Notes under the pieces: model-generated
The model's database searches: none
Told to the model about the DNA's origin: nothing
The model's input: the letters and a program-made list of their open reading frames with translations, nothing else
Shown here: positions 3,799 through 24,901 of the stretch, piece by piece
Layout: the number at the start of each line of letters is the position of its first letter
How positions within the stretch are numbered: position 1 is the first letter of the stretch
Program-made: the position numbers and the translations under genes
Assembly (NCBI GenBank): GCA_965207445.1
Contig: CBDBLX010000002.1
Location: forward strand, 2,039,849 to 2,103,848
Reading direction: 5' to 3'
From: Nitrosopumilus sp.
GTDB lineage: Archaea > Thermoproteota > Nitrososphaeria > Nitrososphaerales > Nitrosopumilaceae
Length of the DNA stretch: 64,000 bases

Positions 3799-3879
3799 GT
3801 AACCGTTCAACCCCTTCCCAAATTTAGGCACAAATTCACCACCTAACGTCTGGCGCAGGTACGGGGGTTGAACGGTTAC
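3799..3879. mobile_element. MITE family A, 81 bp
   Basis: 16-bp TIR gtaaccgttcaacccc/ggggttgaacggttac; nearly identical to 53824-53904. Confidence 0.9.
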
Positions 3880-21361: not shown

Positions 21362-21471
21362 TACTGATATGATTAAAGATCCGATATTTTGATTGATATT
21401 TATCTCGAAGTTGAGCACATATTATGAATACAAAATATTAGAAAACTATCGGATCTTTAATGAAACTATTA
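21362..21471. mobile_element. MITE family C, copy 2, flanked by TGCT
   Basis: Near-identical to 10632-10741; tgct at 21358-21361 and 21472-21475. Confidence 0.9.
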
Positions 21472-21662
21472 TGCTCAAGGACAAAGAAGGCATCAACATA
21501 CGCATGAGTAAGAGACGTAACCCACAGGACAAAGTCGATGTTGTTAAAGTGATGCAGAAAAATGAACTAAACATACGAACAATAAGAGACGTAATCCACA
21601 GGACAAAGTCGATGTTGTTGTAGTATTTTTTATCACCCACATATCTGCAGTTGAGATATGCT

Positions 21663-23331
21663 TAGTAATTTCATTAAAGATCCGATAGTTTTTACAGGCG
21701 ATTTCGGCTAGGCAGGCGGGTACGGAGTGGAAAAATAGACGTAATTGGCACTATGTGTAGCAGATACCGTGTGGTAGCCGGAAGAGAGACGAGGAATTGA
21801 GGTGTATATCCAGTGGCATGTATTAAGTAATTTTTGATCAATTGGTTGAATTAATTTGACCTCGAGTGTCAAAAGGCGATGTGGCCATTAGTGTTTGATG
21901 AAAAACGAAAAAATGGTACATCGACTAGTACTCGTCGATGCCATATTTAACGACTCTGCAGGTAGATCGTCTTGCGGCATCGACGAGGTGCGTATTTTTT
22001 GAAGACAGTCTATGTAGAAAGAGGGGACGGGTTCATGCCCGACGTGTCCCTGGAGGATCTAAAAGCCGCCTACCGCAAAGAGCCTCCGGGCAAGTCCCGG
22101 GACAGACTGCAGGCGGCAGTTGGACGAAAAAAGGGCAAGAGTGAGTCTGTAATAGCCGCCCAGCTCGGACGCAGCCAGAGCGTCATATCCGAGTGGCTCA
22201 ACAGGCTACAATCAGAGGGCTTGGAGGGCAGATATGACCGCAAGAGCCCCGGCAGGCCGTGCAGACTCACAAAAGAACAACAAGAACAGGCAAAGGCCGA
22301 TCTGAGTAAAGAGCCGATGCAGTGCGGCTTTGAGCGTGGGACATGGACTGCCGCCTTGTTTGCATTGCATCTGGCAAACATTTTTGACGTCCAGTACACG
22401 TGGACCGGGGCCCTGGCGCTAGCTCACAGGATGGGCTTTTCAATAAGAATGCCCAGGCCAATTCACCACAAGTCTGCCAGTCCATTAGAAGAAATGTATT
22501 ATGTACACGACACAATACGCGCCATCATGGCGCACGCCCGTGCCGGCTACGAGGTGTTCTGTATGGATGCCGCTGCAATCACAAACTCGCCGTATGTCGC
22601 GCGCGGACTACATCTCCGAGGAGGCTCTGAGACTGTAAATGTCAACTTTTCAAAAACAAGCATGAAAATGCTGGGTGCACTCGGGGCCGGTACATGCCAC
22701 CTGCACTTTTGCGACAGTGCGAATACTGTAAACGTCATAAAACTGTTGGAGATGCTCCGAGAAAAGTACGGCAAGGTATTTGTCATATGTGACAATGCAT
22801 CTGCGCACAAGTCCAAAGACATCAAGCAGTATCTGGAACAGGCAAGAGGACAAGTCGCACTATGGTACTTGCCGCCATACACTCCTCAACACAATCCCAT
22901 AGAGATCCAATGGCGTGAGATAAAGCGCGCATTGGCAGGCAGATACTACAAGGGTGGTTTTCCAGAGATTCAAAAGTCCATATTACACATGATGGAAAAA
23001 GGCGAGGTAGGTACAGTCAGACTGCTAGAGTACATGCGCAATGCCATACAAGACGCAAAGAACAACGTGTTAATACCAGAACTCCGGGCTGCATGAACTG
23101 CATATTACGCGAACTAGGTAGGTCCGGGCGAGGCTGTGCGACACACAGATCACACTATGATCAGGACGGCTGCGCACATACCCTTTACCACGTCGAAATA
23201 CATGGCTAGCATGCCCCATGTCCATGGGAAAATCATGGAGCATGTATGGATTACAACATGGGGCCTGGCTGATTTCCCAATATATGATTATAAGAATGTC
23301 TAAAAACTATCGGAACTTTAATGAAATCACT
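21663..23331 (+). mobile_element. TIR-bounded element (family C ends) containing an IS630 transposase
   Basis: tagtaatttcattaaagatccgatagttttt / aaaaactatcggaactttaatgaaatcact(a); terminal base displaced to 24747 by the IS110 insertion. Confidence 0.8.
22035..23096 (+). CDS. IS630-family transposase, apparently intact
   Basis: HTH + GRP motif, WT motif, CMD / CDNASAH / LPPYTPQHNPIE triad; GC-rich. Confidence 0.93.
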   Translation: MPDVSLEDLKAAYRKEPPGKSRDRLQAAVGRKKGKSESVIAAQLGRSQSVISEWLNRLQSEGLEGRYDRKSPGRPCRLTKEQQEQAKADLSKEPMQCGFERGTWTAALFALHLANIFDVQYTWTGALALAHRMGFSIRMPRPIHHKSASPLEEMYYVHDTIRAIMAHARAGYEVFCMDAAAITNSPYVARGLHLRGGSETVNVNFSKTSMKMLGALGAGTCHLHFCDSANTVNVIKLLEMLREKYGKVFVICDNASAHKSKDIKQYLEQARGQVALWYLPPYTPQHNPIEIQWREIKRALAGRYYKGGFPEIQKSILHMMEKGEVGTVRLLEYMRNAIQDAKNNVLIPELRAA

Positions 23332-23464
23332 CCTATGATAACTCCCGAGCGTACGAGTCGTACCTTTCCGATATTTCATCCGTCTCATGACTACCAAGTA
23401 CAGAGTGTAGTTTATAGCTAACGCTAAGGGTTAATCTGTACATATGCATACGCGGCAGATGTGC

Positions 23465-24559
23465 TTATGCCTTGTTCTGTCGTCGTCTCTCCAGCTTGGC
23501 CAATTTGCGCTTGTACAGATCTTCGTTGCGTGACTCGTAGCTAGTATTGTTTTGGAGCATGTGCCACATGATGTTCATCATTTTATTCGCGACTACGACA
23601 ACTGCAAGCGCATGCTTGTCTGCATGTCGTTTGCGTGCTGCTTCGTATGCGGCTTTCATTCTCAGATCATGTCTGGCCGCCACACTGGCAGCCTCACACA
23701 TTATCCAATTTACAAGCCGGTCTGTGCCTGCCTTTTTTATCTTTCCAAGACGCATCTCATTACCTGATTGTCTTATTGTAGGACAGAGCCCCGCCCATGA
23801 GATCATTTGTTTGGGAGTCTCAAACCTCGATATATCCGATATCTCAACTGCCAATAGTATGGCCGCATACGTGCCAATACCTGTCATACTGACAAGCAGT
23901 TTTGCATACTCATTTTGAGCTGCTTCGGCATCCAACTGTTTGTCAGTTTCTACAAGCTCGCTTGTGTAGTGTTTGATTTGTCTTACACACTGCTTTAGTA
24001 CAAAGTTATCCTGTGCATCACCGAGATTGAGAGTGTCCAGATAGAATAGTGCCTTGTGAGAGTACATGTTGGCCGCATGTGCGGCCTTGCCATGGGCATC
24101 AAGCAGGTTGTGTATTTGGTTTATCACCTTGGTTCTTGCCTGTACCAGACGTACATGCTGCCTCACAAGATTCCTAATTGCACGTATGTGCTTTGATGGA
24201 ATGTAACACTCTGGAATGGAATTCATCCTGAGTATCTGTGCTATCTTTTCTGCATCTATCTTGTCAGTCTTTTTTCCAGTCTTGTTAATCAGTGCCATCT
24301 TGTACGAATTGGCAAGCTTGATCGGAATGCCAACATCTTCAAACGCATTAATTGTCGTAATCCACAGGTTAGCTGTGGTCTCGCATGCTGCAGTGCATTT
24401 TCCCATCTTACCATACTTGTCAAGTATGGCGCGTGCACATTGTCTTGCATCCTCTTGCGTGTTAAAGTATTGCCCACGGTCGAGTACCTTGCCCCTATTG
24501 TTAACTACACAATAGTCACACTTTTTCTTGCTAATGTCTATACCTATGCTTATCTTCAT
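23465..24559 (-). CDS. IS110-family DEDD recombinase/transposase
   Basis: GIDIS, CET, KTDKIDA (DEDD), GIG, WAGLCP..QSG (catalytic Ser region); SD-like AGGAGGTGA at 24569-24577. Confidence 0.95.
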   Translation of the reverse strand: MKISIGIDISKKKCDYCVVNNRGKVLDRGQYFNTQEDARQCARAILDKYGKMGKCTAACETTANLWITTINAFEDVGIPIKLANSYKMALINKTGKKTDKIDAEKIAQILRMNSIPECYIPSKHIRAIRNLVRQHVRLVQARTKVINQIHNLLDAHGKAAHAANMYSHKALFYLDTLNLGDAQDNFVLKQCVRQIKHYTSELVETDKQLDAEAAQNEYAKLLVSMTGIGTYAAILLAVEISDISRFETPKQMISWAGLCPTIRQSGNEMRLGKIKKAGTDRLVNWIMCEAASVAARHDLRMKAAYEAARKRHADKHALAVVVVANKMMNIMWHMLQNNTSYESRNEDLYKRKLAKLERRRQNKA

Positions 24560-24591
24560 CCTTTGCTATCACCTCCTGGTCGGATGTCTTT

Positions 24592-24712
24592 TGATGAAAC
24601 GGAAGCTGCATACTCCTATCAGGGCTCGCAGCCCAATCATACAGCAGCTCGGATTGCCCCAATCTATGCAAAGGGAGCATTGTCCCATAGTGATTCAGGG
24701 GTCGATTCATCA
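24592..24712 (-). ncRNA. Predicted bridge RNA (target- and donor-binding loops)
   Basis: 7-bp closing stem with two stem/internal-loop/stem modules whose loops match the insertion site and the element junction. Confidence 0.8.
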
Positions 24713-24901
24713 CTACTAGTACGTAGAGGGGGTTATCATGTATTCTATGCTGTAAACACAACGTTTCACCTGCGACATTTCAGGACTGGAGGATAAATTC
24801 CGGCAGGGTTGTAGGCGGTCGCTGCCAGCCACAGAAACGCTGACAAGAACCATGTCGGCCTTGTAATCTTTCACTAACTTCTCTAAGACACGCATTATTA
24901 A

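What the first reader, a model, noticed from the sequence alone, without database searches (positions are those of the whole stretch)
23321..24752. The IS110 target is the terminal inverted repeat of another transposon
Removing the IS110 restores ctttaatgaaatcacta-tgct, the mirror of the left TIR (tagtaatttcattaaag, 21663) plus the flanking TGCT. The left target guide therefore reads the last bases of the family C TIR. IS4321 and IS5075 are known to target Tn21-family TIRs in bacteria. An archaeal analogue would be an RNA-guided hyperparasite that could immobilise or hitch-hike on a resident element (inference from one site).
Basis: partly seen in the sequence, partly recalled or inferred. Interest (0 to 1): 0.75.

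Follow-up and report, generated by a model that had tools for sequence, protein, structure and literature searches.

The report
RNA-guided IS110 targeting transposon ends
A small RNA-guided jumping gene in an ammonia-oxidising archaeon carries a guide that spells out the very tip of another jumping gene and has landed there, and its relatives do the same to the ends of several unrelated jumping genes; it is a clear archaeal example of a habit already known from bacteria.

Summary
A 1,413-bp IS110-family element (23332-24744) sits inside the right terminal inverted repeat (TIR) of an IS630 (family C) and cuts off its last base; removing it restores the TIR and a 4-bp target duplication (TGCT). 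An upstream two-loop bridge RNA has target guides reading AATCA-CT-ATGC, an 11/11 match: 8 TIR bases plus the IS630's preferred duplication. Guides covary with flanks across relatives. Six of 8 perfect sites in the genome are family C ends. Targeting is preferred, not exclusive: of 3 copies here, 1 is in a clean TIR, 1 has a rearranged junction in family C, 1 is in unique DNA with a changed guide. A 90%-identical copy from another study lies in register next to a family-C-like TIR. In 8 of 11 related genomes, 13 of 25 relatives sit 5-16 bp from ends of IS5, IS66, ISH3 or a multicopy repeat. Likely effect: safe harbour and a disabled host end; hitch-hiking has no support. TIR targeting is known (IS4321/IS5075), so this is a new archaeal member; the repeated retargeting across the clade is the interesting part.

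The parts
21659..21662 (+). Left copy of the IS630 4-bp target duplication (TGCT)
21663..21694 (+). Left TIR of the IS630 (family C)
   Evidence: (I16)
22038..23096 (+). IS630 transposase, 352-353 aa, open frame intact
   Evidence: NF033545 179 bits, cut-off 100; PF13358
23301..23331 (-). Right TIR of the IS630, lacking its last base
23330..23331 (+). Core dinucleotide CT, TIR side
   Evidence: shared by both junctions of all three copies
23332..24744 (-). IS110-family element, 1,413 bp
   Evidence: ends set by two sister copies, 99.4% and 96.7% identical
23335..23346 (.). Sub-terminal inverted repeat, 3 bp from the element end
   Evidence: 11 of 12 match to 24728-24739
23465..24559 (-). IS110 recombinase, 364 aa, with D8, E60, D99, D102 and S265
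   Evidence: NF033542 232 bits, cut-off 140; PF01548 + PF02371; alignment to IS621 and ISCro4
24593..24711 (-). Predicted bridge RNA core: closing stem, target-binding loop, donor-binding loop
   Evidence: consensus fold of 13 sequences, 13 of 28 pairs with a two-sided change; expression not shown
24688..24695 (-). Left target guide (RNA AAUCACUA) = last 8 TIR bases
24664..24671 (-). Right target guide: pairs with core, last TIR base and the preferred duplication TGCA
   Evidence: covaries with the flank in copy 3 and in a diverged partial copy and in relatives
24637..24644 (-). Left donor guide (partial match to the element's upstream end)
   Evidence: weaker than the other three guides
24613..24620 (-). 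Right donor guide
   Evidence: 7 of 7 match to the element's own end in 27 of 28 elements, three covarying forms
24728..24739 (.). Sub-terminal inverted repeat, 5 bp from the element end (7 with the core)
24745..24746 (+). Core dinucleotide CT, far side
24747..24751 (+). Displaced last TIR base (A) and right copy of the duplication (TGCT)
21362..21471 (.). 110-bp MITE with family C ends; not a perfect target of the guide

Best explanation
The element is a bridge-RNA recombinase of the IS110 family whose target loop is programmed for the tip of the resident IS630. Shown from sequence: the junctions, the core, the guide positions (by covariation), the 11/11 match, and that most perfect sites are family C ends. 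Inferred from IS621 work: the element forms a circle, the recombinase tetramer pairs the target loop with TIR tip plus duplication and the donor loop with the circle junction, cuts next to the CT core through serine 265 and inserts without a new duplication. Inferred effect: the element gains a multicopy, low-cost landing site (safe harbour); the host end now reads C where every intact copy has A and is probably a poor transposase substrate until the IS110 leaves. Targeting is leaky: half-matched sites and single-base guide changes give other landings. Across the clade the same scaffold has been reprogrammed several times onto TIRs of unrelated IS families.
For: Guide-flank agreement in 26 elements: right guide 4.6 of 5 vs 1.5 shuffled (max 2.5), left guide 3.65 vs 1.6 (max 2.4). 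5 of 7 free perfect sites are family C ends. Run X7 (another study), record 26: a copy about 90% identical, with a 23/24 match to the family C TIR core in exact register; the host copy here is 97.9% identical to an empty sister, so the two insertions are separate events. Copy 2's one guide change matches the TTACTA tip found at 6 of 15 left ends and 0 of 15 right ends. Uniform inverted-repeat test: 6 of 28 junctions vs 4 of 273 random positions. With empty sister copies, 13 of 25 relatives in 8 of 11 genomes lie 5-16 bp from an element end, including one IS5 with both TIRs occupied (L117).
Against: Only 1 of 3 complete copies in this genome is in a clean TIR. Copy 3 is in unique DNA with a 3 of 5 left match; copy 2 joins the inside of family C to the inside of another repeat, and the other half of that repeat is not beside the family C right end. 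Only 1 of 30 family C ends is occupied and none of 120 MITE ends. In X7 the 8 letters between TIR core and element are not displayed and its guide is cut off. 12 of 25 relatives are not shown to be at ends; one is in a microsatellite; guide-derived patterns found no repeat in G156 or for the G149 variant guide. Most relative searches used patterns taken from the observed flanks, and kin are not independent. No RNA or activity data.
Confidence: 0.82

Rival explanations
1. No specialisation: guides drift by point mutation and the element lands wherever a match exists; in a genome that is 20% repeats one copy hit a TIR.
For: Copy 3 in unique DNA, copy 2 ambiguous; sister copies often differ in guide; 20% of the genome is in repeats of 3 or more copies; 12 of 25 relatives not shown at ends.
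Against: Only 1.8% of the genome is within 18 nt of a repeat end, against 13 of 25 relatives; a second insertion in register in X7; both TIRs of one IS5 occupied.
Confidence: 0.09
2. Hitch-hiking: IS630 plus IS110 move as one unit, cut at the displaced tip by the IS630 transposase.
For: The duplication TGCT flanks the whole composite, which a joint move would also give; the host transposase frame is intact.
Against: Only one composite among 11 paired family C copies; the far end keeps 3 TIR bases (core plus A) and no binding repeat; insertion after the IS630 landed gives the same duplication.
Confidence: 0.05
3. Guides are rewritten from the landing site (target-templated updating), so every copy matches its flank whatever the first target was.
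For: Right guide matches at least 4 of 5 flank bases in 26 of 26 elements, also where sister copies differ in guide.
Against: Mutation first, then insertion at the new match explains the same data; left guides often mismatch their flank (12 of 26 below 4 of 5); both changes here are single C-to-U transitions; no such mechanism appears in the papers read.
Confidence: 0.04

Closest known systems
IS4321 / IS5075 (IS1111 group) in the TIRs of Tn21-family transposons (Partridge and Hall 2003, title only seen; PMC8269217 passages)
   Same: Site- and orientation-specific insertion inside another element's TIR; sub-terminal inverted repeats; a target of about 12-13 bp; occasional landings at look-alike host sites (ureC); read as a safe harbour.
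   Different: Archaeal host; IS630 target; the guide runs off the TIR into the host element's preferred duplication; non-coding region upstream, not downstream, of the recombinase; relatives switch among IS5, IS66, ISH3 and IS630 ends.
ISEc21 (IS110 group; Siddiquee et al. 2024, PMC11187229)
   Same: Upstream guide RNA, recombinase of similar length (358 vs 364 aa), target inside another IS; a natural retargeting case (ISMch6).
   Different: ISEc21 hits catalytic-residue codons of IS3-family transposases, not a TIR; its guide order (bottom-strand match first) is the reverse of this element's when read in the recombinase direction.
IS621 and ISCro4 bridge recombinases (PMC11208160, PMC11208158)
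   Same: DEDD plus catalytic serine, CT core, two-loop bridge RNA upstream of the gene, four guide segments.
   Different: Distant sequence match only (E 4e-11 and 2e-8); IS621 targets REP repeats; here there are 12-bp sub-terminal repeats and the donor and target are read on the strand opposite to the gene.

Membership tests
IS110 family (bridge recombinases) | DEDD RuvC-like domain plus PF02371 domain with catalytic serine | tested here: met
IS110 family (bridge recombinases) | No long TIRs, no new target duplication, shared core dinucleotide at both junctions | tested here: met
   CT at both junctions of 3 of 3 copies
IS110 family (bridge recombinases) | Non-coding RNA with target and donor loops that covary with target and donor DNA | tested here: met
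   (sequence evidence only; single-sequence fold z -0.45)
IS110 family (bridge recombinases) | Circular intermediate, expressed RNA, recombination activity | not testable with these tools
   all runs were contigs and none is on record as RNA
IS1111 group (IS4321/IS5075 type) | Sub-terminal inverted repeats of 7-17 bp | tested here: met
   12 bp, 11 of 12 matched, 3 and 5 bp from the ends; range
IS1111 group (IS4321/IS5075 type) | Long non-coding region with the guide downstream of the recombinase | tested here: not met
   guide RNA is upstream (24593-24711); the paper lists a few such exceptions, e.g. ISMtsp17
IS1111 group (IS4321/IS5075 type) | Top-strand match 5' of bottom-strand match in the RNA | tested here: met
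   true if the top strand is the recombinase strand, which is my reading of the convention
IS1111 group (IS4321/IS5075 type) | Recombinase groups with IS1111 relatives, 330-350 aa | tested here: inconclusive
   364 aa; the GL-P----SG motif is present but also in IS621; no tree with reference elements was built; best plasmid hits are under 30% identical in the rows shown
IS630 family (host element) | HTH plus DDE_3 transposase between TIRs | tested here: met
IS630 family (host element) | TA dinucleotide duplication (recalled, from no call) | tested here: not met
   4-bp duplication outside a TA-tipped TIR in 44 of 65 pairs

The most novel reading that the evidence does not exclude
These elements form an archaeal lineage of 'TIR hunters': one conserved bridge-RNA scaffold that is reprogrammed again and again onto the ends of whichever IS is expanding in its genome (IS5, IS66, ISH3, IS630), tracks tip polymorphisms and even the host element's preferred duplication, and so acts as an RNA-guided brake on IS expansion in repeat-rich ammonia-oxidising archaea.
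Probability: 0.3. Interest if true: 0.72.

Novelty: new member of a known kind. Interest (0 to 1): 0.5.

Why it matters
How bridge-RNA guides get their targets in nature is open. This clade gives a natural series of about 28 guide-target pairs on one scaffold, with single-base guide changes between sister copies and switches between unrelated host IS families, so selection for TIRs can be tested directly. It extends TIR targeting to archaea and to IS630, shows a guide that reads across a TIR tip into the host element's preferred duplication, and offers compact archaeal recombinases with readable guides. If insertion disables the host end, one mobile element limits another.

Tried and rejected
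TA duplication for family C: first assumed, rejected. Copy 2 as a simple second TIR insertion: not shown; its right flank is in register with the inside of another repeat. It can still be a left-TIR insertion followed by a deletion that ends at the core (I put this near 0.65), or a direct insertion into that repeat. The 2 other perfect sites are not transposon ends but lie in a small duplicated reading frame; about 2 are expected by chance (hand arithmetic from 39.6% GC). No near-identical copy in 60 relatives by DNA, 150 genus genomes (best 76% aa), a draw of 400 family genomes, metagenome contigs (2 loci at 55%) or viral contigs (0). No RNA holder listed. The inverted-repeat test on 1.3-kb flanks was too short even for the window's own site (5 of 26 vs 12 of 296) and was redone on longer flanks, where 16 of 44 recombinase hits were dropped because their ends could not be parsed. 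Patterns with no hit: G100 and G156, G156; one non-repeat hit in G149. The single-sequence fold is not unusual (z -0.45). The joint 21648-24754 in runs X1/X4 rests on 23 letters a side with 16 other letters and is not in this genome; not used. A survey of all ends of a second, decayed IS110 family in this genome was not completed, so its terminal fraction is open. No fold or complex prediction was run.

Full report
Setting. The window is G000:C2:2039849-2103848. The nearest protein relatives lie in records titled Nitrosopumilaceae or Nitrosopumilus. The genome is repeat-rich: 20% lies in repeats of three or more copies. Family C is an IS630 (NF033545) with 11 paired copies 93.6-97.9% like the window copy, 5 of 11 with a full frame, 30 ends in all and 120 ends of a 110-bp MITE.

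Observation. The IS110 (NF033542) spans 23332-24744 with CT at both junctions; two sister copies fix the ends. Removing it restores the right TIR. Family C duplicates 4 bp, not TA: 44 of 65 paired ends show an exact duplication against 12.3 for shuffled pairs (max 21), with TGCA in 21 of 44. So the TIR ends in ACTA, the IS110 sits inside it, and the last A plus the duplication TGCT lie on the far side (24747-24751).

Guide RNA. The 185 bases upstream of the recombinase hold a scaffold conserved across 13 aligned relatives, with two hypervariable patches. The consensus fold has two internal loops, and 13 of 28 pairs show two-sided changes. The first patch reads AAUCACUA, the last 8 TIR bases; the second pairs with core, last TIR base and TGCA. 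Covariation: copy 3 changes one base of the right guide and its flank has the matching base; a 74%-identical partial copy has a different right guide and a matching flank. Over 26 parsed elements (3 from this genome) the right guide matches 4.6 of 5 flank bases (shuffled 1.5, max 2.5) and the left 3.65 (shuffled 1.6, max 2.4). The right donor guide matches the element's own end 7 of 7 in 27 of 28, in three covarying forms. Kin are not independent, so these are descriptive figures.

Is the TIR the family's target? For: the 11-base target occurs at 7 free sites, 5 of them family C ends; with the occupied site that is 6 of 8. In run X7, from another study, record 26 has a copy about 90% identical (142 other letters over 23329-24692) preceded by a 23/24 match to the TIR core in exact register, 8 letters away as in the window. 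The host copy here is 97.9% like an empty sister, so this is a separate insertion. A 30-bp remnant at C2:530226 and a loose end in run X4 have the right flank that the guide predicts; their left flanks are unknown. Against: copy 3 is in unique DNA (left match 3 of 5, right 5 of 5). Copy 2 is a chimera: left flank at about base 398 of a family C copy, right flank inside another repeat. Its single guide change matches the tip variant found at 6 of 15 left ends and no right end, the missing piece of that family C copy is its left end, and the break falls on the core, so a left-TIR insertion followed by deletion fits; but the duplication and the other half of the repeat do not match. Half-match recombination, reported for IS621 (10.64898/2026.08.31.748434, abstract and introduction read) and for expanded loci (10.64898/2026.08.14.744561, first part and a term search), would explain such one-sided junctions; that link is inference. 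Only 1 of 30 ends is occupied; MITE ends differ from the copy 1 target at 2 or more of 11 positions and none is occupied.

Relatives. Genus and family searches gave relatives of 41-76% identity. From 39 regions (plus three of this genome), 28 of 44 recombinase hits had parsable ends. A uniform test, a 16-base window over the core with an inverted partner within 3.5 kb, was met by 6 of 28 junctions and 4 of 273 random positions. Comparison with empty sister copies shows homology running from 120 bases inside to 5-16 bases past the core and then stopping. Counting both tests, 13 of 25 relatives in 8 of 11 genomes sit at an end: IS5 or IS5-like in G002, G149, G160, G163, G213; IS66 in G100, G187; ISH3 and a 21-copy repeat in G157. 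The reversed control patterns gave 0-1 hits per genome against up to 33. In G160 one IS5 carries an IS110 in both TIRs with its 8-bp duplication outside. A rough tree (27 rows, copy 3 left out, translations including some flank and X at stops, no formal test) puts these in 8 lineages on both sides of the midpoint. The patterns were taken from observed flanks and are not blind; of three later searches for elements of unknown status one found a multicopy end, one a short palindromic repeat and one nothing. Twelve relatives remain unassigned, one in a microsatellite. A second, decayed clade member in this genome sits 9 bases inside the end of a high-copy MITE.

Mechanism. By homology to IS621 (catalytic residues aligned; passages of PMC11208158; passages and section 12 of PMC11208160) the recombinase would cut next to the core and join circle and target. 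The host end loses its last base; terminal bases are generally needed by DDE transposases (recalled), so that end is probably disabled, which is inference. Hitch-hiking is unsupported: one composite only, and three TIR bases at the far end. The simplest benefit is a safe harbour, the reading given for IS5075 in PMC8269217 (passages), where look-alike host sites are also hit.

Comparison. It is a member of the IS110 family. It works like IS4321/IS5075 but is not filed in the IS1111 group: it has the sub-terminal repeats and guide order, yet the RNA is upstream, an exception that PMC11187229 notes (passages and sections 6 and 13 read). That paper also shows ISEc21 targeting IS3 transposase genes. 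Partridge and Hall 2003 is not held; I saw only its title in reference lists. Searches listed no paper on archaeal IS110 elements in TIRs or on IS630 as target; the archaeal IS survey PMC13343696 names IS110 once (passages); 10.1101/2025.10.25.684509 was seen as abstract only. Subscription journals, ISfinder and supplements were not seen; the target logos and tables in the supplements of PMC11187229 and PMC11208160 could already hold such cases. Unchecked notes of this scan report the same habit in other bacteria and archaea, which lowers surprise and is not evidence.

Verdict. Real, and correctly read in its main point; a new archaeal member of a known kind. Interest 0.5, mostly for the clade-wide retargeting.

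Noticed in passing
window 21659-21662 and 24748-24751; genome-wide family C: This IS630 and its 110-bp MITE duplicate 4 bp (mostly TGCA) outside a TA-tipped TIR, unlike the TA duplication usually given for IS630 (recalled); 44 of 65 pairs.
   Followed up: partly
G000:C2:1500660-1502337: Decayed second member of the same IS110 clade (CA core) inside the end of the high-copy MITE seen in the window at 3799, 10158, 37057 and 53824 (155 exact end copies); its guides fit that site. Other remnants were not surveyed.
   Followed up: partly
L117 (G160:C1:235216-247006): One IS5 with an IS110 in each TIR and an 8-bp duplication outside the whole composite.
   Followed up: partly
L054 / L118 (G152): A relative whose guides match a microsatellite junction, in which it sits.
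   Followed up: no
L127, L128, L152 (G180): Two relatives sit in a palindromic repeat of about 60 bp, with one empty copy found.
   Followed up: partly
window 24692 and 24668 (equivalent positions in copies 2 and 3): Both guide changes between sister copies are C-to-U in the RNA, which by wobble would widen rather than switch recognition; inference.
   Followed up: no
G000:C2:1273491-1275110: The family C copy beside IS110 copy 2 carries three of its own MITEs; 4 other paired family C copies have mismatched duplications, which suggests frequent recombination between copies.
   Followed up: no
G000:C2:1188623-1189443, 1284004-1284993, 1401326-1402144, 1750027-1751016: Four more distant IS110-family genes (about 25% identity); targets not examined.
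   Followed up: no
runs X1 and X4, window 23361-23912: A second variant about 90% identical, sharing substitutions with the X7 copy, is present in these runs but not in G000.
   Followed up: no
L106 (G160): The restored site of this relative is repeated over 134 bp nearby, next to an IS630 gene; unexplained.
   Followed up: no
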